Part shown: one piece after another, positions 1,198 to 26,493 of the stretch
Layout of the letters: every line of letters begins with the position of its first letter
How positions within the stretch are numbered: the first letter of the stretch is position 1
Virus record (IMG/VR): IMGVR_UViG_3300025057_000004
Coordinates: 24,920 to 88,919 of that record
Length of the DNA: 64,000 nucleotides
Direction: 5' to 3' (one strand)
Origin: a virus
The notes under the pieces: generated by a model
Databases searched by the model: none
The model's input: the letters and a program-made list of their open reading frames with translations, nothing else
What the model was told of the DNA's origin: nothing
Program-made: the position numbers and the translations under genes

Positions 1198-2284
1198 TGC
1201 AGCTCTGTCTCAGATAAAACAGAGACAGGAAAGAGCTGCTTTAGGACATGTGAACTGCATTCCTTTTCCTTTTGAACGAACATCAAGGTTCTTTCCTGGT
1301 ATAGAACGAGGTACATACGATATATGTACAGCAAACTCAGGCGTTGGTAAGTCCAAGCTTGCACGTTTTCTGTATGTTATCGTCCCTTACACGTTCATCA
1401 AGGAGAACCCTGAGACGGATATCAGATTGAAGATATTCTATTTTAGTTTAGAAGAGAGTAAGGAAAAGTTCATGATGTCCATCATATCATATTGGCTGTT
1501 CGTCAAACACAATATGCGTGTGTCCATCAAGGAGTTACGTTCTGTCGGTAAGGTAGGCTACTATCTGCCTGACAGTGTGATTCAAAAGATCGAAGAAGCA
1601 AAGGATTACTTTGCTGATCTTGAGAAATACGTGACCATTGTGGATGACATACATAATCCTACAGGTATCTTCAAGACGATGAAGACATACAATGAGCAGA
1701 GGGGTAGTTGGACAAAACGAAAGATAACCATTGACGGTATTGAGAAAGAGGTCAATGATTCGTATACTCCAAACGATCCTAATGAGTATGTCATCTGTAT
1801 CACAGATCATATCGGTCTGTTGAGAACAGAGAGAGGTCTTACAAAACACGAGACGATAAGCAAATTCTCATCTCAGCACTGCATTGAACTGCGTAACAAG
1901 TATGCTAACATAGTTGTGAACGTTCAACAGCAGAGTTCAGATAAAGAGAAGAAGCAGTACACTTTCAAGGGTCAATCAATTGATGAGAAACTTGAGCCAT
2001 CATTGGACGGTCTTGCAAACAACAAAGAGACACAGCGTGATGCTGATAATGTCTTCGGTCTGTTTGCTCCTGATCGTTATCAGATGGAAGAGTGTGACAA
2101 CTATCGTGTTGATGTATTGCAAGATCACTTCAGAGTATTATTGATACTTAAGAGTCGTGACGGTGAGTCAAACATCAGAACTCCGCTTTTCTTTGACGGT
2201 GCCTGTAGTTACTTCAAAGAGATGCCGAGATCAGAAGACAGTACAGAGGTAGAAAAGGTCTACCAGTACGTACAGAACCTTTAA
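1172..2284 (+). CDS. dnaB: DnaB-like (SF4) replicative helicase
   Basis: Walker A ANSGVGKS, motif H1a FYFSLEE, Walker B ICITDHI, H3 VQQQ, H4 QRDADNV, and C-terminal LKSRDG. Start moved to MSSGDG at 1172. Confidence 0.85.
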   Translation: MSSGDGIFDAALSQIKQRQERAALGHVNCIPFPFERTSRFFPGIERGTYDICTANSGVGKSKLARFLYVIVPYTFIKENPETDIRLKIFYFSLEESKEKFMMSIISYWLFVKHNMRVSIKELRSVGKVGYYLPDSVIQKIEEAKDYFADLEKYVTIVDDIHNPTGIFKTMKTYNEQRGSWTKRKITIDGIEKEVNDSYTPNDPNEYVICITDHIGLLRTERGLTKHETISKFSSQHCIELRNKYANIVVNVQQQSSDKEKKQYTFKGQSIDEKLEPSLDGLANNKETQRDADNVFGLFAPDRYQMEECDNYRVDVLQDHFRVLLILKSRDGESNIRTPLFFDGACSYFKEMPRSEDSTEVEKVYQYVQNL

Positions 2285-2295
2285 TTTTAAGAAGA

Positions 2296-3009
2296 ATGAG
2301 CGCAATTGGCGTGTTGGTCGTAGGACCATCAGGTGCAGGTAAAAGCACCTCAATGATGAATCTTGATCCTAAGAGTACATACATTGTGAATGTACAAGGA
2401 AAGGCATTGCCGTTTCCTAAAGGTAGAGATTACAAACGTGTTCCGAAAGGAGGAAGACCTGATTCAGGTAATATGTACAGCACAGATGATGTACCTACAA
2501 TTTTGCAGGTGCTTCAGTATGTGAGTGACAAGATGCCTGATATGAAAACAGTAGTGATAGACGATTGGCAGTATTGTGCTGCTAACGAGTTTATGCGTAA
2601 AGCAGAGGTGAAAGGTTTTGAGAAGTTTACACAGATAGGTAAACATATCTGGGAGCTTGCTAATGCACCTACTAACTTACGTGATGACCTTACAGTTATC
2701 TATCTTACTCACGAAGAGGAACTTACGGACTCCACAGGTGCTCGTAAGAAGAAAGCGAAGACCATTGGTAAGCTTGTAGATGATAAGATCACACTTGAAG
2801 GTATGTTCACCATTGTATTGTATGCAGATGTTGAGACAAAAGAAGAGGGTGGTAGCAAGAAACTATGGAATCACTTCGTAACTCAGAATGTGGGTGATAC
2901 TACTGCAAAGTCCCCAATGGGAATGTTCAGTGAACTCAAGATCGATAACGATCTTAAGACAGTCGTTGATACTATCAACGAATACTATGGGAGAGGATCC
3001 CAAAATTGA
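2296..3009 (+). CDS. AAA/P-loop ATPase (Sak4/AAA_24-like recombination protein)
   Basis: Walker A GPSGAGKST, Walker B VVIDD, C-terminal AKSPMGMF; located in the replication module. Confidence 0.8.
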   Translation: MSAIGVLVVGPSGAGKSTSMMNLDPKSTYIVNVQGKALPFPKGRDYKRVPKGGRPDSGNMYSTDDVPTILQVLQYVSDKMPDMKTVVIDDWQYCAANEFMRKAEVKGFEKFTQIGKHIWELANAPTNLRDDLTVIYLTHEEELTDSTGARKKKAKTIGKLVDDKITLEGMFTIVLYADVETKEEGGSKKLWNHFVTQNVGDTTAKSPMGMFSELKIDNDLKTVVDTINEYYGRGSQN

Positions 3010-3040
3010 TCAATTTTAATCTTTAATTATTAACTAAGAA

Positions 3041-3388
3041 ATGGAAAACTCCAATTCTAAAAAACAGATCTCTATCAGCGAGATCATCACCCTTATGGGA
3101 GCAGGATACACACGAACTAATACAGCTCGTAATTACAATCCAGAGATCGGATGTATTCAAGATTACTATGACCTACCGAAAGATCAGGTAAGACTTTTGT
3201 TCGAGCATCCAAAATTGGCGAATGTTAAGACGACAAAGGTTGTTGTTCCTATGTTCGATCTTGTAGATGACACTACTACTACAAGTAGTGAAGATGAGAA
3301 TGCCTCTGCTATTCCAGGTGTAACAGCTAATGAAGAGCCTGTAACAGAGACGTTTACTAACACTAACACTTATAATACTTTTAACTAA
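3041..3388 (+). CDS. Hypothetical protein
   Basis: 115-aa ORF after an AT-rich leader, coupled to the next gene by TAATG. Confidence 0.7.
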   Translation: MENSNSKKQISISEIITLMGAGYTRTNTARNYNPEIGCIQDYYDLPKDQVRLLFEHPKLANVKTTKVVVPMFDLVDDTTTTSSEDENASAIPGVTANEEPVTETFTNTNTYNTFN

Positions 3389-4182
3389 TGGCGATCGGAG
3401 TAAGAGACAGTGCAGAAAAGGTAACAGGAGGAGTAAAATTGATGACAGGTGCAAACTTCGTATATGTCAAAGCAATTGCTCCATCTGTTGAGGAGATGAA
3501 GAATGTTCTCGGATTCGAAGAACCAAAGGCACCAACACCATCAGTTGATACAGACGCAGAGGGTAACACCCGTGTACGTATTGATATGTGGTTGAGTAGA
3601 CCAGAAGATGACTTCCTATATCGTGAGTCTTTCTTCATTACAAAGAAGGATGTAGTATCTCAGAGTGGTAAAGTTCAGTTCGTGAACAACTTTGCTCAGT
3701 TCTGTTATGCAGATCCTGAAGAAGGACCTCAGTATGAGTGGTTCAACAAGGAAGGTCTGAGAAGAGCTTTCAATGGCGAAGAGCAGTTTATGAACTTCAT
3801 CCGTGTATGGGTAAACCATAAGGGTGGTAAGAAAGGTGAGCAATTGTTCTTTGATAATTGGGATGCTATCTTCGCAGGTAACTTCGGAGAGATCAAAGGT
3901 ATTCTACAGATGACCAATGATGGTGAACCTAATCGTGTAGGCATGCTATTCGGTGTGAAGACAACTGACGATGGTAAGCAGTATCAGACATCATACAGAA
4001 AACTGTATGTACGTCCTTATCAGAATGCTGCTACTGAGTTTCAAAAGTCTTTGAACGATGAGTATGGTGCATTCAATCACGATTATCAAGGAAGCCTTGT
4101 GTGGCAGGACTACAATCCTACCGCAGTAAAAGACCCTGTGGGTTCTGAAGCACCAGGTGCATCAGATTCTCCTTGGGGATGA
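3388..4182 (+). CDS. Putative single-stranded DNA-binding protein
   Basis: Aromatic-rich beta-type protein with a flexible tail ending DSPWG. Lies between the Sak4-like ATPase and the primase. Confidence 0.5.
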   Translation: MAIGVRDSAEKVTGGVKLMTGANFVYVKAIAPSVEEMKNVLGFEEPKAPTPSVDTDAEGNTRVRIDMWLSRPEDDFLYRESFFITKKDVVSQSGKVQFVNNFAQFCYADPEEGPQYEWFNKEGLRRAFNGEEQFMNFIRVWVNHKGGKKGEQLFFDNWDAIFAGNFGEIKGILQMTNDGEPNRVGMLFGVKTTDDGKQYQTSYRKLYVRPYQNAATEFQKSLNDEYGAFNHDYQGSLVWQDYNPTAVKDPVGSEAPGASDSPWG

Positions 4183-4211
4183 TAAACAGTTAATATTCAT
4201 TATGCTATACT

Positions 4212-5150
4212 ATGCCTGTAAACGTAAGAAAAGAATTGAGTATCGAAAAGATACTCAGCAAAACATCACAGCTTGACATATATAGAAAGTACATCGGAGA
4301 TGTTTCTCCAAAGAAGATGATATCGTCACCTCTACGTGAGGGCGACAGTACACCTTCATTCAGACTTTACTATGGTAACAACGGTGATCTGCGATTCGTT
4401 GATTACGGTACAGGTATAAGAGGAGGAGTATTTGATCTCGTATCAATGCTTTATCCTTATCTCACTTTCGGGGAGTTGCTTGAAAAAGTATGGGAGGATC
4501 TGCAATGCAGGTCTCTCCCGCAACTTCCGATAGTATCAAACAAGAGGATAAAACCTAAAAGCTTTCCAACGATACTCATAAAGAAACGTCAGCCCACAGA
4601 GGATGATGTACAGATGTGGAAACAATGGGGAATCTCTACTGATACACTCAATCACTTCAGAGTAAGTCCGATATCTAAGTTCTGGATAGACAGGTCTTTG
4701 TTTAAATGCAAGACCCTCTCTTATGCTTATGATCTGTTCACAGAGTTTAAGATATACAGACCTCTTGAAGAAAGAATGAGATTCATATCAGGTGGTATGG
4801 AACTGCAAGGTTACAGATTGCTACCTCATAAAGGTGAGATATGTGTGATACAGAAGTCTTACAAAGATGTAATGCTGATGCATGAAATGGGAATACCTTC
4901 ATTTGCACCACAGGCAGAATCTATTGATGTGCCAGAGGATAAGATGGAGAGTATCATGTCACGTTTTGACCGTGTATTCATTTGGGGTGATCCAGACACA
5001 GCAGGTAATCTGTTCGCAGATAGACATGTTGAGAAGTATGGTGTAACCCCTGTATTCAATGATGACGGTACAAAAGACATTACTGATTCTTATGCAATGC
5101 ACGGTAAGTATCACGCTTATGGTATGATGGAAAAGCTGTTGGGTATCTGA
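4212..5150 (+). CDS. DNA primase (DnaG-type, TOPRIM)
   Basis: N-terminal SPLREGDSTPSF...DYGTG zinc-binding-domain-like region; TOPRIM DxD motif (WGDPDTAG) and KDITD. Confidence 0.8.
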   Translation: MPVNVRKELSIEKILSKTSQLDIYRKYIGDVSPKKMISSPLREGDSTPSFRLYYGNNGDLRFVDYGTGIRGGVFDLVSMLYPYLTFGELLEKVWEDLQCRSLPQLPIVSNKRIKPKSFPTILIKKRQPTEDDVQMWKQWGISTDTLNHFRVSPISKFWIDRSLFKCKTLSYAYDLFTEFKIYRPLEERMRFISGGMELQGYRLLPHKGEICVIQKSYKDVMLMHEMGIPSFAPQAESIDVPEDKMESIMSRFDRVFIWGDPDTAGNLFADRHVEKYGVTPVFNDDGTKDITDSYAMHGKYHAYGMMEKLLGI

Positions 5151-5170
5151 TGGCAAAGTGAAGTTGAAAA

Positions 5171-5518
5171 ATGGCAAACCGCAATAGAAATGCAGGTCAT
5201 TCGTGGGAGAGAGAGTGCGTAAAGCTGTTATCAGAGTTTTTTCCAGACGTTGTGACATCACGTTCGGAGTCAAGAAGAAGAGACGACCAGAAGGTTGACC
5301 TCTGCTACACTGACTACCTGAATGTACAGTGCAAAACACTGAAAGACCGTGTAGATTATATATCTGTACTTAAGACTATGCCTGTAGAGGAAGGTCAACT
5401 CAATGTGATATTTGAGAAGAAGACCACTAAAAGTCCTAAAGGAAGATTTGTAACACAGGGCAAATATGTACATATGACGCTGGATGATTTTATTAACTTA
5501 ATCCGTAAGACATGTTAA
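5171..5518 (+). CDS. Holliday-junction resolvase-like PD-(D/E)XK nuclease
   Basis: N-terminal RNAGHSWERE followed by VDL...NVQCK, matching the Hjc-like catalytic pattern. Confidence 0.7.
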   Translation: MANRNRNAGHSWERECVKLLSEFFPDVVTSRSESRRRDDQKVDLCYTDYLNVQCKTLKDRVDYISVLKTMPVEEGQLNVIFEKKTTKSPKGRFVTQGKYVHMTLDDFINLIRKTC

Positions 5519-5865
5519 ATCTATCAATATCATTTGCAATACTGCATACGTTTGTAACGGCAACATGCTATCAAGCAGTTCCTGAACAATGTGATGCAGA
5601 TCCGTATGTTACAGCATTCAACTACCGTATTGATCCTAAAGATCCATTATCACACAGGTATGTGGCGATAAGCAGAGATCTTGAGGCATTCTATTCACCA
5701 GGTGATTCCATATATATTGTGGGAGTAGGTGAGTATGACGGTATGTGGATGGTTGCTGACAGAATGAATAGAAGATGGTCTAACAGGATTGATCTTCTTG
5801 TAAATAATGATTCCTATGTTGACAGATTTACGGACGTAAGAATCATAGAACATGTTCGGAAATGA
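5512..5865 (+). CDS. 3D-domain (MltA/RlpA-like double-psi barrel) protein with hydrophobic N-terminus
   Basis: VTATCY, TA, YVAISRDL, G-D-x-I, VADRM and RIDL motifs are typical of 3D domains. Confidence 0.7.
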   Translation: MLNLSISFAILHTFVTATCYQAVPEQCDADPYVTAFNYRIDPKDPLSHRYVAISRDLEAFYSPGDSIYIVGVGEYDGMWMVADRMNRRWSNRIDLLVNNDSYVDRFTDVRIIEHVRK

Positions 5866-6139: not shown

Positions 6140-6574
6140 ATGTCAAGAGCAATCTATATTAAATCAGAAGGTAACGCAAGACCAAAGAAAGTAACTGACT
6201 TCGAAGGAACTACATTCGGTGAGTTGAAAGCTCACGTAACAGATGTAAACTTTGAGAACGCGAATGTGATCATTCACTCTACAAAGACAACATTGTTCGA
6301 TGATACATCATTGATTCCTGCAGAAGGTGATGTCATCTTGCTTGTGGTACCAAAACAAATGAAAGCAGGTAATGATGAACTACAGGTATCTGATACCGAT
6401 GAGTTCAGCGACCTTATGGAGTGCTACAACGAGCTTGTAGATGCCTCATCTCGTTTTAACGAAGCACTTAAGGCAGTAGGAGAACTTATTGTAGAGGATG
6501 AAGAAAATGTTGAAGTTGGTGGTAGCACTCTTGCTGCTATTAACAGAGCATTCAGAAACTTCTCAGGTAAGTAA
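6140..6574 (+). CDS. Ubiquitin-like (beta-grasp) protein precursor with acidic C-terminal extension
   Basis: Residues 1-77 follow the ubiquitin pattern: beta-hairpin, TTFGELK helix start, LFDDTSLIP..GDVILLVV final strand, then PKQMKAG77. Adjacent to JAB and ThiF genes. Confidence 0.7.
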   Translation: MSRAIYIKSEGNARPKKVTDFEGTTFGELKAHVTDVNFENANVIIHSTKTTLFDDTSLIPAEGDVILLVVPKQMKAGNDELQVSDTDEFSDLMECYNELVDASSRFNEALKAVGELIVEDEENVEVGGSTLAAINRAFRNFSGK

Positions 6575-6581
6575 TTGATTA

Positions 6582-6619
6582 GGAGACCCTTCTGAAATAC
6601 GGAGGGTCTCCATTCATTT
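6582..6619 (+). terminator. Stem-loop after the Ubl gene (leaky terminator or mRNA stabiliser)
   Basis: GGAGACCCTTC-tgaaatac-GGAGGGTCTCC, an 11-bp stem with one G.U pair, followed by an imperfect U tract (ATTCATTT). Confidence 0.7.
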
Positions 6620-6631
6620 AAAACGATAAAT

Positions 6632-7714
6632 ATGCGACCACTTGCGTTTAAAATTAAGGGTGATTTCGGCACAGTATATATTACAGAGGGTGGTATCAAA
6701 GATGTTGCTCCTGAAGGTGTATTGTACGTAGCTAATATTCATCCTGATGATGACATCATAGACAGAGATAGTTTTAAATATCATATTATTTTGAAACATC
6801 TTTATGATATATTGGATCATAGATACAAATGTGATGGTGATATAAGTAATATTGATATTGATGTAAGGTATATACATTATTCTGATGCATATAATATCAA
6901 TATAAAAATGTATCATGGTGATATTGAGATCATTAATAGTTTGGGTCATAAAGCTTTGATCAAAGAAGTGTATACTAAAACGTTTATCATAGCAGATGAA
7001 AGAGGTATGAAGTTTCGAGATCTTAATATACTTCGCACTTGTATCAACACCATCGAAGCAGAAAAAAAATTCTGTCATTCTCATGCTCCTGGTTTATCAA
7101 CATTTCGACCTAGTTGGAGTTCTATGTGTTTAGGTGATTCTGAATTGTATAAACATTTCTTTAAAAGAAAGAGAAAGCATACAGATATGAGCCTTTATTC
7201 AGTATATCTTGATACTTATCTTGCTTGGGAGAGTAAAGAAGGTGGACCTTACAGCACTATTGAAAGTGTTTATAATTGTCCTATTAATGATTCAAGTGTT
7301 AATATAAGTATTGACGATGTGAATGTTGATAATCTTATATACAAGTATGCAGATGTGTTTCAAGTAGTTGATTATAACGGTAAACTTACCGTATCATCTG
7401 ACTTTATGAATCATATTGAAATAGAAGGTGTACGTAAGACCAATTCATATGGTAATTACTTTGATTTTGACATTTTTAAAACAACCACTAGTTATACAGG
7501 AGGTAATGATGTTGAATGTTCATCCGCAACATTCAGGGGTGTTCCGTTAAGAATGGCTATAAAGGATATTGACAAAGATGAACTGATGTCATATATGCCT
7601 ACTATTTATAACAGACCGCCAGGAAACCTAATGGATACAATAAAAAATAGAGTTTCTTCAATTATAAATCTTAATTATGAAAAAAGTAACAGAGAAGAAG
7701 TACGAAACGCTTGA
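6632..7714 (+). CDS. Putative E2-like (ubiquitin-conjugating fold) protein
   Basis: FCHSH(149-151)...SMCLG (C166) resembles the HPN/HxH...CL active-site arrangement of E2 enzymes. Lies between the Ubl and JAB genes. Confidence 0.55.
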   Translation: MRPLAFKIKGDFGTVYITEGGIKDVAPEGVLYVANIHPDDDIIDRDSFKYHIILKHLYDILDHRYKCDGDISNIDIDVRYIHYSDAYNINIKMYHGDIEIINSLGHKALIKEVYTKTFIIADERGMKFRDLNILRTCINTIEAEKKFCHSHAPGLSTFRPSWSSMCLGDSELYKHFFKRKRKHTDMSLYSVYLDTYLAWESKEGGPYSTIESVYNCPINDSSVNISIDDVNVDNLIYKYADVFQVVDYNGKLTVSSDFMNHIEIEGVRKTNSYGNYFDFDIFKTTTSYTGGNDVECSSATFRGVPLRMAIKDIDKDELMSYMPTIYNRPPGNLMDTIKNRVSSIINLNYEKSNREEVRNA

Positions 7715-8789
7715 GCTGAAAGAAAAAGGTAAGCTCATTATTACAGAAGATGTAAAGAAAAAGATCGATCAGATGCATGATCGTGTAGGTAATACTGAAT
7801 GGTGTGGTTTTATCTTTTATGAAAAAGTTGAAGGTAGCATCAGTGATCCTGAAACATATGTGGCTAAGACTACAGATGTCTATATGATGGATATCGGCAG
7901 TCATAGTTATACTGAGAGTGATAATCATACTGATGATGTTGTTAGTATGGTAGATCGTATTCCTGCATATATGGAAAACAGATATGGTCTGATACATACG
8001 CATCATAATATGAGTGCTTTCTTTTCAGGTACTGATATTCAAGAGTTGCACGATAACGTTCATCTATATTCTTATTATCTGTCACTGATCGTTAATTTCG
8101 ATGGTAAGTGGTGTGCTAAGATTGCTAAGTTGATAGATGTTGAAAGCAGTTCTTATACCATTACTGAAGAAGATGAGGATGATGTAATTGTAAACATTCC
8201 ATCAAAGAAGGTGATGATCACATTTGATCTTGACATTGAGTTTGAACAGCCTGAAGCTTATGATGATGTAGTTGAATTACGTATTGCTGAGATCAGAGAA
8301 CGTAAGAAGAAGGAAGAAGAAGAGAAGAAGAAAAACAAATCTCTTTTCAACAATCCTTATCAGACAAACATGTTCAAAAACACTGATTACTACAGTCACT
8401 CAAGTCTTAATGCATACAATAATTGGTATGCTCAATATGATGAATTGGTACAGCAACCTAAAACAGGTTTTACAGAAGATGATGAGATAGAGTGGTTCAT
8501 ATCATCTCTTATTTATCTTGATCCTTATGCTGATGAACCATTGCACGATGCATTATCAGATCTTAAGGATCATGAATCAGATCCTTATTTCAATGTGTAT
8601 GTAGATCAATTGAATGACAATGCAGTAAACTATGCTATCGATCATTTTGATATTACTGGGGCATACGAGGGTGTATGCAGTACATTAAAAAAGCTGAAGC
8701 CTTACTCAGGTAAAGGTGTTGAGAAGCTTAGAGAAGCACTTGAGTTAGCTAAACACGAGTTAAATAAGAATAACGAATACTCACTATGA
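7677..8789 (+). CDS. JAB/MPN+ (JAMM) metallo-isopeptidase
   Basis: E41 (TEWCG) plus an exact JAMM motif H107-T-H109-x7-S117-x2-D120 (IHTHHNMSAFFSGTD). Confidence 0.88.
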   Translation: MKKVTEKKYETLELKEKGKLIITEDVKKKIDQMHDRVGNTEWCGFIFYEKVEGSISDPETYVAKTTDVYMMDIGSHSYTESDNHTDDVVSMVDRIPAYMENRYGLIHTHHNMSAFFSGTDIQELHDNVHLYSYYLSLIVNFDGKWCAKIAKLIDVESSSYTITEEDEDDVIVNIPSKKVMITFDLDIEFEQPEAYDDVVELRIAEIRERKKKEEEEKKKNKSLFNNPYQTNMFKNTDYYSHSSLNAYNNWYAQYDELVQQPKTGFTEDDEIEWFISSLIYLDPYADEPLHDALSDLKDHESDPYFNVYVDQLNDNAVNYAIDHFDITGAYEGVCSTLKKLKPYSGKGVEKLREALELAKHELNKNNEYSL

Positions 8790-9475
8790 TAGAAGTACAA
8801 CACAAGGATTCTCATACGAGATTCAATAGTGTTGACTGGTTCGGTGATTTCAGAGAGATAACTATCGGTGGTGTCGGCACTATCGGTAGTTGGCTTTCTC
8901 TGTTATTGGCAAGAACTGGTGAACACGAATTGATCATGTATGATGATGATCAGGTTGAAAGCATCAATCTATCAGGACAACTGTTCTCGAAAGATGATGT
9001 TGGCAGATCTAAAACGGACAGTGCACGTGATAACATATTCTCATTTACTGAGATATCAGATCAGAAAGTGCATTCGATGAATCAGAAACTTACGAGCGAA
9101 TCGTATGTATCTGCAATCTCATTCTCTTGCTTTGACAATATGAAAGCACGTAAAGAGATGTTCAACAAATGGAAGACCCTTGAGAACAGAGAGCTTTTCA
9201 TTGATGGTCGTATGACCATTGAAACATACGAAGTGTATGTTGTAAAGAAAGGAGATGAGAAACGCTACGAGCAGACACTGTTTGATGATTCACAGGTAGC
9301 AGAACAGATATGTTCTTTGAAGAACACATCACATACAGGTGCGCTCATTGCTGCAAGAATGGTAACTTCATTCACAAACCATATTGCCAATCAGATAATG
9401 GGCATTGATATACGTGAAGTACCATTTCATTTTAGAGAAGATATGCAATTACAGTTAATTACTATGGAATGTTAG
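8786..9475 (+). CDS. ThiF/MoeB/E1-like adenylating enzyme
   Basis: GxGxxG (GGVGTIGS), YDDDQVESINLSGQ, K76, CFDNMKAR, IDGR, and candidate catalytic Cys176 (EQICSLK). ATGA overlap with the JAB gene. Confidence 0.9.
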   Translation: MIEVQHKDSHTRFNSVDWFGDFREITIGGVGTIGSWLSLLLARTGEHELIMYDDDQVESINLSGQLFSKDDVGRSKTDSARDNIFSFTEISDQKVHSMNQKLTSESYVSAISFSCFDNMKARKEMFNKWKTLENRELFIDGRMTIETYEVYVVKKGDEKRYEQTLFDDSQVAEQICSLKNTSHTGALIAARMVTSFTNHIANQIMGIDIREVPFHFREDMQLQLITMEC

Positions 9476-9957
9476 CAGAAATAATAAAACATTATGATGA
9501 TCCTTATAAAATTGATCTTTATGATTTTAGACGTTTATATCTTTCTAATGAAAAACAGTCTTTTAAAAGATTGTCTCCTATAGTACATAATACACTTGTA
9601 CCTGTTATTTATGCTATTACAGGTACCAATAAAATAAATGATCGTCAGGTAAATGGTATATACGAAAGTATATATGATTCTAATCGAGGCTTTTATGTAA
9701 ATGCTGTTGCGTGTATAGATCATAGAGAAGTAAAGAAAGTGCGTGAGAATTTTATTCATGCATTACTTAACCACCACGATTTTATGAAAGTGACAAATAT
9801 CACGTTTGTTCTTGAAAATGATAACGCTGAAGTAGCTATTCCAAGTGATTTTATAGCTAAGAAAGAAATGCTTGCTGATGTACAGAACAATCTGTCAACT
9901 ATGATCAAGCAGTCTATTGAGAAAGATAATGAATTAGGTTTAATGATAGTAGAATAA
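9469..9957 (+). CDS. Hypothetical protein coupled to the ThiF gene
   Basis: 162-aa AT-rich ORF overlapping the ThiF stop, TAATG-coupled to the next gene. Confidence 0.65.
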   Translation: MLAEIIKHYDDPYKIDLYDFRRLYLSNEKQSFKRLSPIVHNTLVPVIYAITGTNKINDRQVNGIYESIYDSNRGFYVNAVACIDHREVKKVRENFIHALLNHHDFMKVTNITFVLENDNAEVAIPSDFIAKKEMLADVQNNLSTMIKQSIEKDNELGLMIVE

Positions 9958-20258: not shown

Positions 20259-23200
20259 TTACATGTTTGTAAAGAATCTTAATCTTTCTTCAGGGTAGAA
20301 TACATCTTCTATTGTATCTACCATTGGTATCTGCCTCTTTGCCCAAACACCTAATTTAAGATCACCTTTATTTCTTCCAGCCTTGTACTCTGAAAAGAAA
20401 GGGTCATCATTGTAGAACCACCAAGGGTTGATGGTTCTTGTAATATCAAGAAGGTTTTCAAATTGATCAACCGCAGCAGATGGTGATTTAAGAATCTTTG
20501 TTGCTTCTTTAATATTCCAAACGGGAATGAATATACCAAGTTCTGTACTAAATCTATTTACCTGGTAAGCAAGCATATTCAAAGCCCAATTATCATCATC
20601 ATCTCCAGCTAAAGCAGCGAGAAACCCACCTGCTATGACAGCAGTTAAGAAATAACCTACCTCAACCATACTTCTTTTAATATTTGCTTTTTCCATTGGA
20701 GATAACTTATCAAAAGCATCTCCCGCAGAAGCAAATGTAAATTGACCTTCTTTGATCTCTTTTACAAGTTGTAACATAAAACGACCAGAAGTTCGATACA
20801 TACCTTCTATTTCGTCACCTATCATATAGTTACGATATTTTCTTTCAAAACGTCTATGAATACCTGTTGGCATCCACTTTCTAAACAACATTCCTGCTCT
20901 ACCGAGAGCTGATTTTTGAATAGCGTTTCTATCATTTATATTATAGATACCATGCAGTCTTTGATTTACAGATTGCATTTTTAGAATAAATTGGTTCTTA
21001 TCTGCGTCCGTAAAATCAGAACCGTCAAGATTCTTAACACCATCACGCACTTTTAATCTATTATTTTCTACTTCAAGAACATCATAGAAATCTACCTTTT
21101 TACCATCAAGCAATACTTTTTTATTGAATGCCATACCAAGTGCCATGCGTGATTGCATTTGGTGTTCACCCATATGGTTTAGCAAAAAGAAAGCAGATTC
21201 TGTCATTTGTCTTCCGAATCTATTACGATCTGTATTTGCTTCACTTACACGATTTTCAAAATCTTGCAATACATCAAAATCTTCAAGAAATAATCTAAGT
21301 TTATTATCGGATCTTGTTTTACCAGTATCTCCCATAAGACCTGCTAAACCATCGTTTGTATCAGTCCAATACGCTTTACGCGCTTTAGAAAGATCTTCTT
21401 GAGTTACAAACTGTTTTGCAAATGCTTCTTCTCTTATAAGTGCATTACCAAGAATAACGTTTGACATACCAGAGAAAACGTTGAGAGCAAGATTATTAAC
21501 AGAAGTATACTTTATAAGACCATCTATGATTTTTGCTTCGCTTACACTATCAGGAAGAATAAGATTCTTATTATCTTTTAGTTCACCATAAAATATCATA
21601 TCAATATATGATTTATATCTATCATAAACATTTCCACCTTCTGTAGATTCTACATTTATACCTCCTAACTTTTTTGCTTTTGCTAATAGACTTTCATCTA
21701 CAACTTTACGTTCCCTCATTACATCAGCACCTATTTCTATTACGCCTACGATTGAATTGAGTTCACGATGTCTGTTTGCCATGTTTGCAAATAGAACCAT
21801 TGAGGCTGTTGCGTCTGTAGACAGATCATTCATATTCTTTAAAGGACTGCTGTAATAGATAGGAACCTGTTTAATCGGTCTTCCCATTTCATCAAGCATA
21901 CCGAATGCTGTGTCATCCTGCTGGATCCTTAATATATCATTCAATGTCTCTTGAGCAGTATTCTTAGGGTCACTTTTAAGACGTTCCAATATATCTTTAC
22001 GTATCTGTGGAGCTAACATCTTATTGCGATACCTATCATTCATATGTGACATCAAAGATGTACGCATGTTCATATACTTCTCATAGTACTCTTTTTTAGG
22101 AGCACTACTCATAATTTCAGCATACTGACGATTCTTATATTTATTGGCAGGTTGAGCAAATTCTTTTCGATATCGAATATTACCATCTATATCTTTCCAA
22201 ATACGCTCGTTTTTCCAACGGTTATAATTTTTCAGTGCTCTTACTGTATTATTATATACAACCTTGTTTTCTTTTTTAAGCTTGTCAAGAAAGTCTTCAG
22301 GGTACTTGTTCTTTATTTCATAATAAAGATCAATGTCCTTTTTAAATTTTAAAGTATTCTCTATAAACTCCTTTCTTTTTTGCTGAAGAGCTTTTTTATA
22401 TTCAGGATTAAGCTGTGAATTTTCTTCATACCACCTGTTTTCAGCCTCAATATAATCCTGATCAAGATTAGGATTATTTGATCTGATCTTAAATCTCTCA
22501 AGAGAATCCTCGTGAGGTAAATTCAATCTTTCGTGTAATTCTTTATAGAATTTCTCTTTTGCTTTCTCATACTCACCTTGATTATATTCTGAAACAAGAT
22601 TACCTGTAAGGTTTCCGTCAACATCTCTTTCATAAATAAATTCTGTATTTGGAACACCAGCAGCTTTTAATTTAGCATCCATATCAAAAAGATCACGCAT
22701 GTCACGGATCGTAGATGTCTGAGCGTTTAGAATACGGTCTTTGACAAGACGGTCTGTAAGCCTAAGAAGTTCATCAGGATTTTCTGCCATAGAAGAAATA
22801 AGACGATTCCAATGAATTATATCAGGAGTGACCTCTTCAGTCATTCTCAATAACTCTTCAAGCTCAAGATTTACCTGATTTGATAGCTCATCTTTTGATA
22901 ACCCTTTATCTTTATGATAGGTTTCAAGAAACGGTCTCATAGTATGAACAAATATATTACGGGCATAAAACTTATAATCATTTTCCATTTGTTCTATACC
23001 TGTACTAATATTTTCAAGGGCTTCAATAAGTGCATTATGCCTATCAAGAGTATCTCCTGACACACCTGCGTTAACTAATTTACGTTTATCAAAACGTGTT
23101 TCCTGAAGAACAGACGTTACAATAGGTTTGTATATCGTAATGAATTTGCTCATATCATTTACTATAGTTGAAAACTCTGCAAGTTCATCATTATACATAC

Positions 23201-26200
23201 CAGATGAAAAAGCATCACGCATATACAATAATCTATTCATTACTTTATCAGCTTCACTTTCAGCATGATTGATAAATTTGATAAGACCTTGTGTTACTCT
23301 TATATCCTGTGTATCAACAGCATATCTATCATTAAATACTTTAGCCCTCTTACCAAGAACAAGAGATTCCCACGCTTTCTTTTCATCAGCAGTAAGTTGT
23401 GTTAACGGTTTTGATACTGCTGTTGAAAGTTTTTGTATTTTAAAGAAAGCTCCTAAAAGAGAAGGTTCTATGTTTTTATATTCAGGCTCTACAGTCATAC
23501 TTTCAACTACATTCTTATCATTGAGCTTTATTTCTGCAGCTTTTTCACCTTTATATATTACATCATATACACCAGGCTCAGATCTTTCTACGGATACTTT
23601 CTTTTCAAATTGCGTAAGCGCATTTAGATCTCTGTTCAAAGCTCTTATTAAAGCTTTTTCTTCTTGTAAAAATTCTGAACTACCTCTTTGTTTGTAAGCA
23701 TTTATACGTGTGCCAAGAACGTCAACTGCTTTTTCAAGTTCTTTCTTCATGCCATCAAGCATTTTAGAGTTCTTGAACATTTTAGGATCTATCTGAAAGA
23801 ATTGTGCATCTTCTTTCATATCTTCCATTGCATCAATTCTATCTTTTACAATAGATGGAGATTCAAGTGTTTCAGCTACCAATGCGTCAAGACCTTCACG
23901 AATACGTCTTTCTTTTGCTCTATTACCTATTCTAAAGAATGACATAAAAGCATTGAATATTCTTGAAAGAAGAGTTTTCCATTTAGGAGTAATGCTTCCA
24001 TCAGCTACTTGATCCAATAAGGAATCATTAAGCATTTTACCAACAATCTCAAGTTTTACTTTCTCAACATCATTGTTATATGCTTCCATATATTGCTCAG
24101 AGTATTGTTCCCAATATTTAGTTGATTCTACACCATTAAGTGCTTCGAGAACTCTCGGATCTTCCTTCATTGCATATACAATAAAGTGAGAAACTTCCTC
24201 GCCTAATGTGTCTTTTCTTCTAGTACCTTCGCGTACAGCAATAGACCTGTTAAGTATATCCGCTACTGCATTTGCAGTAAGAGGTTTGCCGTATCTTTTT
24301 TCATACCATGACTTATATTCATCATAATTAACAAGTGATATACCAAGGTCATTCATTAATGACATCAATCGCTTGTCAAGTTTTTCATCAGGTACCGTTT
24401 CTTCTCTAGACTCTCTTTGAAAAAATGAAGGAGAAGGGTTTATCTTAATAAAGAATATCTCACGACCTCCTCTACCGAATTTACTTGATTTATGTACTGT
24501 TACAGCTTTTGATCCTATCTGTCTGTTTACACGACCTACCTTGTTTACTGCATCTACATAACCGTTCTTAGTTATCATCAAGCCACCTTGATATCTTTTA
24601 ATGCCAGGTGATCTGAGCAGTTCAGTTTCAATTTCAGCTATCGTATTAAGGGAAGGTTCTTGAAAAAATATAGGAGTGTCAAGTTCTTTATTTACATCTA
24701 ATATTATTTCATTCCAAGTGTTACCATATTCATCAGTAATTACTTTTACATCGTATAATTTGTTAAGGATATTGGTTACTCTATTAGTATAGAAAGCTTC
24801 TATAGGCTTAAGTTTTTCTAAACCTTCTGTTTTTGCCCGATCTATTCGTGCTTGTTGTGCTTTTTTTATTTCCTCAAGTTCATTGCGTTTTATGTTATAA
24901 TCTTCTTCTGGGTCATAACGATATCCAGTCTCTTGATCGTATAAAGGAACACTGTTTTTACCGATAGTTAATGTCCATTCACCGTTTATTTTTTTGTATT
25001 TTCGAGAACCATAATTAAAAGATTCTACTGTATCAAAAGGTTTTATAGCTTTAAGTTTTTTATTGACAGAATTAATTGATTCTTGTGCTGATTTGATATC
25101 TTCAGCAATAGTTTGATGTCCTTCTATTTTAGCAGCAGTTTCTCCTGTAGGAAATAATACTTTTTCATAGCCTTTTTTAGCAGAGTCTTTTACAATAGAT
25201 TGTATAAAAAAATTAACCCATTTACCATCTTTGTTTAGAAGTTGTAGGAATTGATTTTCCTTCTCGCCTTTTTTTAAAGTTTGTTCTTTATATTTTTTAA
25301 AACCTCTTTTATTAGCTATTTCTAAAGTAGGGGCTTTTCTACCTGTAGGATTACCATTTTCATCTATTTCTACTAACCAAGCTTTAATATAATTATCTGT
25401 TAAATCCTTTTTATCTCTACCTTTCTGAAATAAATCAGATTGTACTTCAAGAATACGCCTTGTTTTAATGTTTTTAGAAGGCTCCTCTTGAGCCTTTTGT
25501 AAAGCAGTTATAAACTCGTCTTGAGATATAAGTTCTTTGTTTTTCCAAAAATCATTGATTTCATAACCTAGTTCAAAATCTTGTTCAAAAACATGCTCGT
25601 ATACATCTCCATTATATACAAATTTCTTACTATTACCTTTATAGCTATAATCTTCCAGTGGGTTACTACTATATCTTGATAATGAACTTTCAGACAATGT
25701 TGATTTATCATCACTTCTAAACCACCCAATACCTTGATCTGTAGCAAACTGAGCATGTCCTTTAATGTTAGGAGTAATAGCAGGTGTAGCTATTTCATTT
25801 TCTGTATAATTGGTACCTCCTGGAACTGTTAGGTTAGAGTAATACTGAGAAGGCTTCATAACAGATTCATCATAAGCACTTCTAAATTCTTTATATGATA
25901 TTTCTATCCCATTCTTAAAATATTTATTACCTTTTCCAAGACTATATGATGAAGAATAAGAATCTTCATTTAATAAAAATCCTTCTCCAGTATTGGGAGT
26001 TACTTGTGTTCCAGTTGGGCGACCTTTAGCAATATTAATCTCAACAGTAAAACTATTATCGGCTAATAATACAGCTATCATATCCTCAACAGGCATTTCT
26101 TTAATGTTGTTAGTCTTCATATAATCAAATACTATATCTATTTGATTATTACTAACTCCTTTATTTTGAAGCCGTTTTCTTAAATTGCTTTCTAAGTTAG

Positions 26201-26492
26201 GACGTTCTTTAGTATTGAGTCTTAATGTCAGTCTTTCAGGACCTGAAGTTTCTCCATATTTTCTTGTCCTTTTTGTATCTTCAGGTTTTATAAACTCACG
26301 TAAAGCTTTTGTAACATTCATAAGATACTTTACTTCTTGATCTCTATACTCAAGACTATCTGCAGTAGGAAACTCATCAGAATTATTTTCTTGTTGCCAC
26401 TCCATTATAGACATTTCAAGATCAAAAGATCTCATTCCTGTCTCAACAAGAAGATCTTTAAATTCGGTACTTGATGTATTTATACAACTCAT
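20259..26492 (-). CDS. Giant virion cargo/ejection protein (~2077 aa), polyvalent-type
   Basis: Start moved to MSCINTSS at 26492, just after the upstream stop. Contains an RRILEVQSDLFQ module, a degenerate zincin motif (GEEVSHF), a long helical C-terminal region and a hydrophobic segment near the C-terminus. Follows the vRNAP gene as in crAss-like phages. Confidence 0.75.
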   Translation of the reverse strand: MSCINTSSTEFKDLLVETGMRSFDLEMSIMEWQQENNSDEFPTADSLEYRDQEVKYLMNVTKALREFIKPEDTKRTRKYGETSGPERLTLRLNTKERPNLESNLRKRLQNKGVSNNQIDIVFDYMKTNNIKEMPVEDMIAVLLADNSFTVEINIAKGRPTGTQVTPNTGEGFLLNEDSYSSSYSLGKGNKYFKNGIEISYKEFRSAYDESVMKPSQYYSNLTVPGGTNYTENEIATPAITPNIKGHAQFATDQGIGWFRSDDKSTLSESSLSRYSSNPLEDYSYKGNSKKFVYNGDVYEHVFEQDFELGYEINDFWKNKELISQDEFITALQKAQEEPSKNIKTRRILEVQSDLFQKGRDKKDLTDNYIKAWLVEIDENGNPTGRKAPTLEIANKRGFKKYKEQTLKKGEKENQFLQLLNKDGKWVNFFIQSIVKDSAKKGYEKVLFPTGETAAKIEGHQTIAEDIKSAQESINSVNKKLKAIKPFDTVESFNYGSRKYKKINGEWTLTIGKNSVPLYDQETGYRYDPEEDYNIKRNELEEIKKAQQARIDRAKTEGLEKLKPIEAFYTNRVTNILNKLYDVKVITDEYGNTWNEIILDVNKELDTPIFFQEPSLNTIAEIETELLRSPGIKRYQGGLMITKNGYVDAVNKVGRVNRQIGSKAVTVHKSSKFGRGGREIFFIKINPSPSFFQRESREETVPDEKLDKRLMSLMNDLGISLVNYDEYKSWYEKRYGKPLTANAVADILNRSIAVREGTRRKDTLGEEVSHFIVYAMKEDPRVLEALNGVESTKYWEQYSEQYMEAYNNDVEKVKLEIVGKMLNDSLLDQVADGSITPKWKTLLSRIFNAFMSFFRIGNRAKERRIREGLDALVAETLESPSIVKDRIDAMEDMKEDAQFFQIDPKMFKNSKMLDGMKKELEKAVDVLGTRINAYKQRGSSEFLQEEKALIRALNRDLNALTQFEKKVSVERSEPGVYDVIYKGEKAAEIKLNDKNVVESMTVEPEYKNIEPSLLGAFFKIQKLSTAVSKPLTQLTADEKKAWESLVLGKRAKVFNDRYAVDTQDIRVTQGLIKFINHAESEADKVMNRLLYMRDAFSSGMYNDELAEFSTIVNDMSKFITIYKPIVTSVLQETRFDKRKLVNAGVSGDTLDRHNALIEALENISTGIEQMENDYKFYARNIFVHTMRPFLETYHKDKGLSKDELSNQVNLELEELLRMTEEVTPDIIHWNRLISSMAENPDELLRLTDRLVKDRILNAQTSTIRDMRDLFDMDAKLKAAGVPNTEFIYERDVDGNLTGNLVSEYNQGEYEKAKEKFYKELHERLNLPHEDSLERFKIRSNNPNLDQDYIEAENRWYEENSQLNPEYKKALQQKRKEFIENTLKFKKDIDLYYEIKNKYPEDFLDKLKKENKVVYNNTVRALKNYNRWKNERIWKDIDGNIRYRKEFAQPANKYKNRQYAEIMSSAPKKEYYEKYMNMRTSLMSHMNDRYRNKMLAPQIRKDILERLKSDPKNTAQETLNDILRIQQDDTAFGMLDEMGRPIKQVPIYYSSPLKNMNDLSTDATASMVLFANMANRHRELNSIVGVIEIGADVMRERKVVDESLLAKAKKLGGINVESTEGGNVYDRYKSYIDMIFYGELKDNKNLILPDSVSEAKIIDGLIKYTSVNNLALNVFSGMSNVILGNALIREEAFAKQFVTQEDLSKARKAYWTDTNDGLAGLMGDTGKTRSDNKLRLFLEDFDVLQDFENRVSEANTDRNRFGRQMTESAFFLLNHMGEHQMQSRMALGMAFNKKVLLDGKKVDFYDVLEVENNRLKVRDGVKNLDGSDFTDADKNQFILKMQSVNQRLHGIYNINDRNAIQKSALGRAGMLFRKWMPTGIHRRFERKYRNYMIGDEIEGMYRTSGRFMLQLVKEIKEGQFTFASAGDAFDKLSPMEKANIKRSMVEVGYFLTAVIAGGFLAALAGDDDDNWALNMLAYQVNRFSTELGIFIPVWNIKEATKILKSPSAAVDQFENLLDITRTINPWWFYNDDPFFSEYKAGRNKGDLKLGVWAKRQIPMVDTIEDVFYPEERLRFFTNM

Positions 26493-26493
26493 T

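What the first reader, a model, noticed from the sequence alone, without database searches (positions are those of the whole stretch)
6140..9475. Phage-encoded, apparently complete ubiquitin-like conjugation cassette (Ubl - E2 - JAB - E1)
Seen in sequence: four consecutive + strand genes, the last three overlapping, inside the replication block. (1) A 144-aa protein whose first 77 residues follow the ubiquitin beta-grasp pattern and end ...LLVVPKQMKAG77. (2) A 360-aa protein with HSH...C166LG. (3) A JAMM peptidase with intact E41/H107/H109/S117/D120. (4) A ThiF/E1 enzyme with GxGxxG, the DxDxVxxxNL motif and Cys176. Established: E1+E2+JAB+Ubl is the architecture of bacterial ubiquitin-like systems such as Bil antiviral defence, CBASS Cap2/Cap3 and the Bacteroidota PRTRC cassette, which are normally host- or MGE-encoded. 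Inference: here the phage has its own protein-tagging pathway, which could modify host defence proteins or its own replication proteins, or subvert host Ubl-based immunity. No sulfur-relay partners (desulfurase, rhodanese, ThiG, MoaE) are in the window, which argues against a ThiS/MoaD cofactor role. I cannot confirm it is undescribed; ThiF or MPN annotations alone may already exist for related phages.
Basis: partly seen in the sequence, partly recalled or inferred. Interest (0 to 1): 0.95.

Follow-up and report, generated by a model that had tools for sequence, protein, structure and literature searches.

The report
Phage-encoded ubiquitin-like tagging gene set
A marine crAss-like phage keeps four adjacent genes beside its DNA primase: a ubiquitin-like protein made with a removable tail, a trimming protease, an activating enzyme and a probable carrier enzyme. 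Cultured gut phages such as crAss001 have the same set, which has so far been studied only in cells and in bacterial anti-phage defence, and no tagging by the phage set has yet been shown.

Summary

- **Ubl (6140-6574):** residues 1-77 are predicted to form a ubiquitin-type beta-grasp. This domain ends at an invariant Gly, and everything after it varies between relatives.
- **JAB (7677-8789):** a JAMM peptidase with the complete motif.
- **E1 (8786-9475):** a minimal E1/ThiF adenylation domain with an invariant Cys176.

The order primase, Ubl, E2-like, JAB, E1 is kept in Flavobacterium phage FpV4, crAss001, DAC15 and other Crassvirales. There the genes are labelled only "thiamine biosynthesis protein", "metalloprotease" or hypothetical. 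No sulfur-relay partner is found anywhere in the 88.9-kb genome.

My best reading is that JAB exposes Gly77, E1 activates it, and the Ubl passes to Cys166 and then to an unknown target. The set is not a member of Bil, Bub, CBASS or PRTRC.

This scan has already noted the same cassette in at least 90 other genomes, with the same verdict. I found no paper that describes it.

The parts
6140..6574 (+). Pro-Ubl, 144 aa. Residues 1-77 (6140-6370) form a ubiquitin-like beta-grasp ending in KQMKAG77. Residues 78-144 (6371-6574) form an acidic helical tail, the presumed pro-peptide or cargo.
6582..6611 (+). An 11-bp GC-rich hairpin 8 nt after the Ubl stop codon. It may be a partial terminator or a 3' stabiliser.
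   Evidence: The terminator scan lists it. The RNA fold gives -22.7 kcal/mol with z -4.4. One metatranscriptome contig covers 5000-6566 and stops just before it, which is a weak hint only.
6632..7714 (+). E2-like protein, 360 aa. It has a UBC-like core at about 45-215 with H149-S-H151 and Cys166-x-Gly168, plus extra N- and C-terminal domains.
7677..8789 (+). JAB/JAMM (MPN+) metallopeptidase, 370 aa. The catalytic domain spans about 10-175, followed by a K/E-rich linker and a helical C-terminal domain.
   Evidence: Pfam Prok-JAB 1.1e-4. PADLOC JAB 2.6e-3 over residues 15-149. The six-frame genome search reaches the Pfam cut-off and finds this as the only JAB in the genome. The motif E41, H107xH109, S117 and D120 is intact, and G..HxH.....FFSGTD is invariant in nine phages.
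8786..9475 (+). Minimal E1/ThiF-type adenylating enzyme, 229 aa. It is a single adenylation domain with an invariant Cys176.
   Evidence: Pfam ThiF 3.8e-18. phrog_15670 7.8e-43. PADLOC Cap2 'E1-E2' models reach 1e-10 on the E1 part only. The profile hits solved MccB, UBA5, PaaA, Uba1, ThiF, MoeB, Cap2 and BubCD. G29, G31, D53, D55, N61, Q65, K76, D117, R122 and C176 are invariant in 10 phage sequences. It is the only ThiF in the genome.

Best explanation
This is a phage-encoded ubiquitin-like protein conjugation cassette, expressed with the replication genes. The proposed steps are as follows. (1) The 144-aa protein is made as a precursor. (2) The JAMM peptidase cuts after the invariant Gly77, freeing a 77-residue beta-grasp Ubl with a C-terminal Ala-Gly and releasing the tail. 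(3) The minimal E1 adenylates Gly77 with ATP and takes the Ubl as a thioester on Cys176. (4) The Ubl passes to Cys166 of the 360-aa E2-like protein. Its extra domains probably select the substrate, since no E3 is seen. (5) The Ubl ends up on a lysine of one or more unknown phage or host proteins, and the JAB may also reverse the tagging. Shown here by computation: the folds or families of the Ubl, JAB and E1, the invariance of the reactive residues, the domain boundary at Gly77, and the conserved gene order. Inferred: the cleavage, both thioesters, the E2 role of ORF 6632-7714, and any target.
For: - The Ubl fold is a beta-grasp and Gly77 is invariant.
- The boundary falls exactly at the Gly. 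Relatives carry insertions of 0-70 residues right after it. In phage cr106_1 an HNH endonuclease gene sits two codons after the Gly, so the Ubl (92 aa, ending KIKSGKF) and the tail are separate ORFs. A metatranscriptome contig of a relative diverges from the window right after base 6370, the last base of the Gly77 codon.
- The JAMM motif is intact and invariant.
- The E1 keeps its ATP and Mg residues, and Cys176 is invariant in 10 phages.
- The E2-like protein has invariant H151 and C166 in 141 sequences. Its confident model has UBC-like topology, and UBC-superfold hits dominate the VIA list.
- The four genes are kept together and in order in nine divergent phages. Their starts and stops overlap.
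- The 88.9-kb genome has no rhodanese, cysteine desulfurase, ThiG, MoaE or PP-loop thiolase.
Against: - There is no biochemical evidence of any kind.
- The E2-like protein matches no E2 profile: Pfam, PADLOC and NCBIfam on 98 family members, UQ_con on the genome, and hhalign against Cap2 E2 domains.
- Foldseek on PDB has no significant hit.
- The His-to-Cys spacing (17 residues from H149) differs from the classical HPN-to-Cys spacing. That comparison is from my own knowledge.
- The Ubl ends in Ala-Gly or Ser-Gly, not Gly-Gly.
- The E1 is only 229 aa and has no recognisable E2-recruiting domain.
- No target or E3 has been identified.
Confidence: 0.6

Rival explanations
1. Sulfur-carrier or other non-protein acyl-adenylate pathway. 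JAB trims the Ubl, and E1 adenylates it and converts it to a thiocarboxylate using host sulfur donors. The 360-aa protein would then be the acceptor enzyme, using the sulfur or the activated carboxylate to modify a nucleotide, DNA, tRNA or a cofactor. This would resemble CysO/Mec+, QbsE/QbsD or TtuB/TtuC rather than an E2.
For: The best-scoring NCBIfam models for the E1 are ThiF and MoeB. JAB + Ubl + E1 sulfur-carrier operons are described in Iyer et al. 2006 (PMC1779556). The cassette sits among nucleotide and DNA metabolism genes. E2 membership is unproven.
Against: All ThiF and MoeB scores are far below their cut-offs, for example 50.5 against 159 bits. The whole genome lacks rhodanese, desulfurase, ThiG, MoaE and PP-loop enzymes, while the controls ring. 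The Ubl ends in Ala-Gly or Ser-Gly, not the Gly-Gly of ThiS and MoaD (that comparison is from my own knowledge). The 360-aa protein has an invariant Cys in a UBC-like topology.
Confidence: 0.12
2. Processing-only module. The Ubl is a cleavable N-terminal chaperone or timer, and the real product is the released tail. Precedents are ubiquitin-ribosomal protein fusions and the lambda TAPI/TAPK pair. E1 and the 360-aa protein would act on something else, for example a C-terminal peptide modification of the MccB or PaaA type.
For: The tails are modular and carry recognisable cargo. In cr126_1 the tail holds a ribosomal L7/L12 C-terminal domain (Pfam 5e-12). In gut phages a conserved helix-rich stretch follows the Gly and a conserved acidic ...SEIDxMFxFV motif ends the tail. 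The top solved relatives of the E1 by sequence are MccB and PaaA. Ubl + JAB without E1 or E2 exists in phage tail modules (PMC1779556).
Against: The tail is the least conserved part and is shortest in this phage, while the Ubl domain and Gly are invariant. E1 Cys176 and Cys166 of the E2-like protein are invariant, which a pure adenylation or cyclisation chemistry would not need. In cr106_1 the tail is already a separate gene, yet JAB, E1 and the E2-like gene are all kept.
Confidence: 0.1
3. Counter-defence decoy or deconjugase. The main job would be to interfere with host Ubl-type immunity (CBASS Cap2/Cap3, Bil). The JAB would strip host conjugates, or the phage Ubl and E1 would titrate host enzymes, and the phage system would not tag targets of its own.
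For: The JAB and E1 resemble Cap3 and Cap2 models in PADLOC. In those systems JAB peptidases reverse conjugation (PMC11601596). Bil systems tag phage structural proteins, so phages have a motive.
Against: A decoy does not need a complete, co-conserved set with its own Ubl, invariant E1 and E2-like cysteines and translational coupling. The cassette sits in the replication module and is conserved across hosts as different as marine bacteria, Flavobacterium and Bacteroides.
Confidence: 0.1

Closest known systems
Bil (BilABCD, types I and II) bacterial anti-phage ubiquitination operons, as summarised in Ye et al. 2024 (PMC11601596)
   Same: Four separate genes: Ubl, E2, JAB/JAMM peptidase and E1. 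No E3 is present, and the E2 is thought to choose the target. Cysteine thioester chemistry is implied by the invariant cysteines.
   Different: This set is encoded by a lytic-type phage inside its replication module, not by a bacterial defence island. The E1 is a single 229-aa adenylation domain, not the IAD-AAD-CYS architecture of BilD. The only Bil model hit is BilD at 1.4e-4 (18.7 bits), and BilA, BilB and BilC have no hit. The Ubl is made with a long C-terminal tail. The E2-like protein is 360 aa and belongs to a family that no library describes.
Type I Bub (formerly 6E.1) operons: BubAB, BubCD, BubE (PMC11601596)
   Different: Bub fuses Ubl to E2 and JAB to E1, whereas here all four are separate genes. 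Bub works through Tyr and Ser oxyesters and lacks catalytic cysteines, whereas here Cys176 and Cys166 are invariant. No BubE/DUF6527-type match turned up among the ORFs next to the cassette that were scanned with Pfam.
Type II CBASS Cap2 (E2-E1 fusion) and Cap3 (JAB)
   Same: The E1 domain is closest to Cap2 models in PADLOC (1e-10). A JAB partner is present.
   Different: There is no CD-NTase in the genome (SMODS search). E2 and E1 are not fused. A dedicated Ubl is present instead of the C-terminus of a signalling enzyme. hhalign of the E2-like family against three Cap2 proteins found nothing.
Lambda and T1 tail assembly pair TAPI (Ubl + C-terminal domain) and TAPK (JAB + NlpC/P60), Iyer et al. 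2006 (PMC1779556)
   Same: Both are phage-encoded. In both, a Ubl domain ending in a conserved Gly is followed by a second module, with a JAB peptidase predicted to cut at that Gly.
   Different: TAPI and TAPK lie in the tail module and have no E1 or E2. The present set lies beside the primase and adds an E1 and an E2-like protein.
ThiS-ThiF and MoaD-MoeB sulfur-carrier pairs
   Same: A beta-grasp protein with a C-terminal Gly and a ThiF-fold adenylating enzyme with a Cys after the nucleotide-binding half.
   Different: The scores are far below the equivalog cut-offs. The genome has no ThiG, MoaE, rhodanese or desulfurase. The C-terminus is Ala-Gly, made by processing. An E2-like partner is present.
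PRTRC (ParB-related, ThiF-related cassette) of Bacteroidota plasmids
   Same: It holds a ThiF-family protein and a JAB-like protein A on a mobile element of the same host phylum.
   Different: PRTRC_ThiF scores 34 bits against a cut-off of 144.75. PRTRC_A scores 15 bits against 101.8. No hit to any other PRTRC component was found.

Membership tests
Ubiquitin-like beta-grasp modifiers (Ubl) | Beta-grasp fold of about 70-80 residues | tested here: met
Ubiquitin-like beta-grasp modifiers (Ubl) | Conserved Gly at the end of the fold that becomes the free C-terminus | tested here: inconclusive
   Gly77 is invariant and marks the domain boundary. In no sequence seen is it the last residue. The closest is cr106_1, with two more residues. 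Cleavage has not been shown.
JAB/JAMM (MPN+) metallopeptidases | E...HxHx7Sx2D metal-binding and catalytic motif in an MPN domain | tested here: met
   E41, H107, H109, S117 and D120 are present. Pfam Prok-JAB scores 22.5 bits on the protein and reaches the 25-bit cut-off in the six-frame search. The motif is invariant in nine phages.
E1 / ThiF / MoeB adenylating enzymes | Rossmann-type ATP-binding domain with GxGxxG, the DxD...N..Q, K and D(N) motifs | tested here: met
   Pfam ThiF 3.8e-18, 66 bits against a cut-off of 28.1. The motif residues are invariant. Profile hits to solved MccB, UBA5, Uba1, ThiF, MoeB and Cap2.
E1 / ThiF / MoeB adenylating enzymes | Catalytic Cys that accepts the Ubl as a thioester | tested here: inconclusive
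   Cys176 is invariant in 10 phage E1s. The alignments to solved E1s stop before it, so equivalence to the catalytic Cys of E1s is inferred from its position only.
E2 / UBC-fold conjugating enzymes | Sequence membership in a UBC or prokaryotic E2 family | tested here: not met
   No hit in Pfam, PADLOC or NCBIfam for this protein or for the 97 other family members scanned. UQ_con is absent from the genome. hhalign against Cap2 finds nothing. The profile against PDB sequences gives no hit.
E2 / UBC-fold conjugating enzymes | UBC fold: N-terminal helix, four-strand antiparallel meander, active-site loop, then helices | tested here: inconclusive
E2 / UBC-fold conjugating enzymes | Invariant catalytic Cys in the loop after strand 4, with a conserved His upstream | tested here: met
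   C166 and H151 are invariant and S150 nearly so in 141 sequences. They lie between strand 4 (125-139) and the next helices. Thioester formation was not tested.
Bil (BilABCD) | [quoted passage not shown] | tested here: not met
   The E1 is 229 aa with one adenylation domain. PADLOC gives BilD only at 1.4e-4 and nothing for the other three proteins.
Bub (types I and II) | Ubl-E2 and JAB-E1 (or E2-E1) fusions, oxyester chemistry without catalytic Cys, and the BubE/DUF6527 protease | tested here: not met
   The genes are separate. Cysteines are invariant in both the E1 and the E2-like protein. No DUF6527 hit in the Pfam scan of the ORFs next to the cassette. The defining features are taken from PMC11601596.
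Type II CBASS (Cap2/Cap3) | CD-NTase substrate gene and an E2-E1 fusion | tested here: not met
   No SMODS domain in the genome. E2-like and E1 are separate genes. Only the E1 part matches the Cap2 models.
ThiS/ThiF or MoaD/MoeB sulfur-carrier systems | Equivalog-level E1, a Gly-Gly C-terminus, and the partner enzymes ThiG or MoaE with a sulfur donor | tested here: not met
   ThiF and MoeB scores are far below their cut-offs. ThiG, MoaE, rhodanese and Aminotran_5 are absent from the genome while the controls are positive. The C-terminus is Ala-Gly followed by 67 more residues.
PRTRC cassette | PRTRC_ThiF and PRTRC proteins A-F above the NCBIfam cut-offs, with ParB | tested here: not met
   PRTRC_ThiF scores 34.4 bits against 144.75. 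PRTRC_A scores 15.1 bits against 101.8. No other component hit.

The most novel reading that the evidence does not exclude
crAss-like phages run their own ubiquitin-type protein-tagging pathway during replication. It would use a previously undescribed E2 family with built-in substrate recognition to modify replisome or host proteins. At the same time, JAB cleavage would release a modular tail as a second effector. That tail carries an acidic, SSB-tail-like end, and in some phages a ribosomal L7/L12 domain. One precursor gene would thus give both a covalent tag and a free regulator.
Probability: 0.3. Interest if true: 0.9.

Novelty: new variant of a known kind. Interest (0 to 1): 0.8.

Why it matters
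Ubiquitin-like conjugation in prokaryotes has so far been worked out only for cellular systems, mostly anti-phage defences (CBASS type II, Bil, Bub). Here the virus carries the whole kit, and it carries it in one of the most abundant phage groups of the human gut and the sea. The kit is present in cultured phages (crAss001, DAC15, FpV4), where it can be tested directly. If it conjugates, it would be a viral post-translational tagging system in bacteria. It would also define a new E2-like family with hundreds of diverged members and a minimal 229-aa E1. In addition, it corrects database labels: "thiamine biosynthesis protein ThiF" and "metalloprotease" in these phage genomes are very probably an E1 and a Ubl-processing peptidase.

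Tried and rejected
- **DNA similarity:** blastn of the cassette against phage records found nothing.
- **The search for related loci on viral contigs:** the E1, alignment A3 and alignment A2 all gave no confirmed locus.
- **The look-up of encoding contigs:** The gene context of the 898 E2-like family representatives could therefore not be surveyed. Synteny rests on nine phage records.
- **ESM Atlas:** no usable hit for the E2-like protein.
- **Sequence libraries for the E2-like family:** PDB sequence profile search, Pfam, PADLOC and NCBIfam on 98 members, hhalign against three Cap2 proteins and UQ_con on the genome all gave no match.
- **Structure searches for the E2-like model:** Foldseek on PDB had no significant hit. 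BFVD returned only uncharacterised crAss-like and podovirus proteins.
- **Fifth gene:** a profile of the gene that follows the E1 in gut crAss phages (crAss001 gp75 type) finds nothing in this genome. The window ORF 9469-9957 has no detectable relative among those genes. I therefore do not count a fifth component here.
- **RNA contigs:** they cover parts of the cassette in four marine or coral metatranscriptomes. They are contigs, DNA carry-over cannot be excluded, and gaps in cover mean nothing. I take them only as a hint of expression.
- **Paper searches:** combining crAss-like or Crassvirales with ubiquitin or ThiF found no description of the cassette. The library lacks most subscription journals, so this does not prove that none exists.
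- both structure-prediction jobs went to the Ubl and the E2-like protein. The JAB, the E1, single domains and complexes were not folded.


Full report
**1. The observation**

The ORF list shows four consecutive + strand ORFs exactly as reported:
- 6140-6574 (144 aa)
- 6632-7714 (360 aa)
- 7677-8789 (370 aa)
- 8786-9475 (229 aa)

- The first protein reads ...LLVVPKQMKAG77.
- The second reads CHSH...x14...MC166LG.
- The third has E41, H107, H109, S117 and D120, a complete JAMM motif.
- The fourth has GVGTIG (29-34), DDDQVESINL (53-62) and Cys176.

The last three genes overlap by 38 and 4 nt, and the next ORF overlaps the E1 by 7 nt.

The window is part of an 88,919-bp virus record. It encodes a primase, a ribonucleotide reductase, giant 4275-aa and 2093-aa ORFs and a transglycosylase-bearing protein. 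Near-identical DNA occurs in seawater and marine-sediment metagenomes of several studies.

**2. The ubiquitin-like protein**

No profile library recognises it. It has many relatives. In their alignment the first 77 residues are strongly conserved and end in MK(A/G)G, and insertions of 0-70 residues start right after that Gly.

AlphaFold2 on this alignment predicts a strand-strand-helix-strand-strand-strand domain for residues 1-72 (pLDDT about 80-88). A disordered linker follows at 75-82, then two helices.
- Foldseek on PDB returns almost only ubiquitin and Ubl domains. For ubiquitin itself TM is 0.63-0.70 and rmsd 2.4-2.7 A over about 75 residues.

The homologous gene in FpV4, bajarodcaudo virus, crAss001, cr128_1, cr111_1, cr126_1 and DAC15 has the same N-terminal domain. 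It ends in K-x-[KR]-[SA]-G and is followed by a long, variable, acidic tail.

Three observations place a module boundary exactly at the Gly:
- the indels that start right after it;
- phage cr106_1, where an HNH endonuclease gene lies two codons after the Gly, so the Ubl (92 aa...KIKSGKF) and the tail are separate ORFs;
- a metatranscriptome contig of a relative that matches the window up to base 6370, the last base of the Gly77 codon, and then continues into the insertion-bearing variant.

A profile of the family finds at least 6,735 protein clusters. Many lie on contigs of about 100 kb.

**3. JAB and E1**

The third protein scores 22.5 bits with Pfam Prok-JAB. In the six-frame genome search it reaches the cut-off and is the only JAB in the genome. 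Its motif G..HxH.....FFSGTD is invariant in nine phages.

The fourth protein is a clear ThiF-fold enzyme (Pfam 3.8e-18; phrog_15670 7.8e-43). All ThiF and MoeB equivalog scores are far below their cut-offs. The best PADLOC hits are the E1 halves of CBASS Cap2 (1e-10), and BilD scores only 1.4e-4.

A profile of ten phage E1s hits solved MccB, UBA5, PaaA, Uba1, ThiF, MoeB, UBA6/7, NAE, Cap2, SAE2 and BubCD. The nucleotide and Mg residues and Cys176 are invariant in these ten sequences. The alignments to solved structures end before Cys176. Its equivalence to the E1 catalytic Cys is therefore inferred from position only.

**4. The E2-like protein**

This is the weak link. It has close relatives. 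A profile search of 1.84 billion representatives found 898 at E<=1e-3. In 141 of them, H151, C166, G168 and P206 are invariant, and N102, R135, E142, S150, E200, S201, G204 and F301 nearly so.

AlphaFold2 with this alignment gives a confident model (pLDDT 92.8, pTM 0.89). The order of elements is as follows:
- helix 51-68;
- four long antiparallel strands at 74-139;
- a loop holding HSH149-151 and Cys166;
- helices 171-177 and 186-197;
- a further C-terminal domain.

This is the order of elements in a UBC fold, a statement from my own knowledge of that fold.

The structure searches give mixed support:
- Foldseek has no significant hit. Cap2 ranks 4th and UFC1 43rd.
- In the second look, CapZ and Mediator subunits score the same as the E2s.

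Sequence methods give nothing: Pfam, PADLOC and NCBIfam on 98 members, PDB sequences, hhalign against Cap2 and UQ_con on the genome.

I therefore call it E2-like on three grounds: topology, an invariant His...Cys in the right loop, and gene context. I do not file it as a member of any E2 family.

**5. Conservation of the set**

tblastn with the E1 finds 81 phage records. They include 29 Flavobacterium phages, 29 Bacteroides crAss-like phages and 12 uncultured crAss-like phages.

In all eight relatives I opened, the order is primase, (small genes), pro-Ubl, E2-like, JAB, E1. In crAss001 these are gp79, gp78, gp77 ("metalloprotease domain") and gp76 ("thiamine biosynthesis protein, ThiF").

The window ORF 3388-4182 is also homologous to crAss001 gp81. 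The gene after the E1 in gut phages has no relative in this genome, so here the conserved unit is four genes.

**6. Ruling out the cofactor reading**

Six-frame searches of the whole genome find no rhodanese, Aminotran_5 desulfurase, ThiG, MoaE, PP-loop ATPase or CD-NTase. The control genomes ring for each. The record is estimated 88% complete, so a missing part cannot be excluded.

**7. Mechanism and comparison**

The closest functional parallel for the first step is Type I Bub. There the JAB domain of BubCD cuts the BubAB pre-protein right after a conserved Gly to give a conjugation-competent Ubl (PMC11601596).

The gene complement is that of Bil: separate Ubl, E2, JAB and E1, with no E3. 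The present set differs from both:
- Unlike BilD, the E1 lacks the IAD-AAD-CYS architecture.
- Unlike Bub, there are no fusions, no BubE and no oxyester chemistry.
- Both reactive cysteines are invariant.

The phage tail-assembly pair TAPI/TAPK (PMC1779556) is the known phage precedent for a Ubl-plus-tail protein with a JAB, but it lacks E1 and E2.

My best reading is therefore a phage-encoded thioester cascade: JAB cut after Gly77, E1~Cys176, E2-like~Cys166, then a target lysine. I put this at about 0.6. The identities of the Ubl, JAB and E1 I put at about 0.9. The rivals (a sulfur or acyl carrier, a processing-only module, a counter-defence decoy) cannot be excluded without biochemistry.

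**8. Expression signals**

A strong hairpin (6582-6611, -22.7 kcal/mol, z -4.4) follows the Ubl gene. One 1,640-nt metatranscriptome contig covers 5000-6566 and ends just before it. This fits the idea of more Ubl mRNA than enzyme mRNA, but it is a single contig end and only a weak hint.

**9. Novelty**

I found no paper in the searchable library that links crAss-like phages to a ubiquitin-like system. Existing annotations name only two of the genes, and misleadingly.

Within this scan the cassette has been noted 118 times in at least 90 genomes. Follow-up agents reached the same verdict, which I arrived at independently before reading those notes.

What this window adds:
- a marine lineage with the shortest precursor (144 aa);
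- genome-wide exclusion of sulfur partners;
- the cr106_1 natural split and the RNA-contig junction at the Gly codon;
- a possible JAB-less variant in a Xanthomonas jumbo phage.

Noticed in passing
L004 (Xanthomonas phage PhiXhv-16, PV764603.1) 1730-5606: A jumbo phage has an E1 homolog (7e-26 with the nine-phage E1 profile) but no JAB neighbour. Two genes upstream, a 140-aa ORF ends in ...AKASGG, a free C-terminal Gly-Gly. The adjacent 892-aa Cys-rich ORF carries IHPH-x13-LCLGS, the core motif of the E2-like family. hhalign aligns only 33 columns (E 0.0086, probability 4.7%). This may be a JAB-less version of the same system.
   Followed up: partly
L008 (uncultured phage cr126_1) 2344-3270: The tail of this phage's pro-Ubl contains a ribosomal protein L7/L12 C-terminal domain (Pfam PF00542, 5e-12, above the cut-off). 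Several metagenomic relatives carry it too.
   Followed up: partly
L007 (uncultured phage cr106_1) 1743-2946: An HNH endonuclease gene is inserted two codons after the conserved Ubl Gly. It splits the precursor into a 92-aa Ubl ORF and a separate 130-aa tail ORF.
   Followed up: yes
L003, L005, L002, L009: C-termini of the pro-Ubl genes: The tails of the gut crAss pro-Ubls end in an acidic stretch followed by a conserved S-E-I-[DN]-x-M-F-x-F-V motif. This recalls the acidic, aromatic-ended C-terminal tails of SSB-type replication proteins (a resemblance from memory). A conserved helix-rich stretch (..GKNFT.C.T.DL..L) follows the Gly.
   Followed up: no
window 6582-6611: An 11-bp GC-rich hairpin lies right after the Ubl stop (-22.7 kcal/mol, z -4.4). 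A metatranscriptome contig covering 5000-6566 stops just before it.
   Followed up: partly
window 9469-9957: A 162-aa ORF overlaps the E1 stop by 7 nt. It has no family hit and no detectable relative among the genes that follow the E1 in the other phages. The gp75-type gene of gut crAss phages is absent from this genome.
   Followed up: partly
window 20259-39321 (- strand): Two giant ORFs of 2093 aa and 4275 aa lie back to back. Such giant genes are typical of crAss-like phages, but I did not examine these.
   Followed up: no
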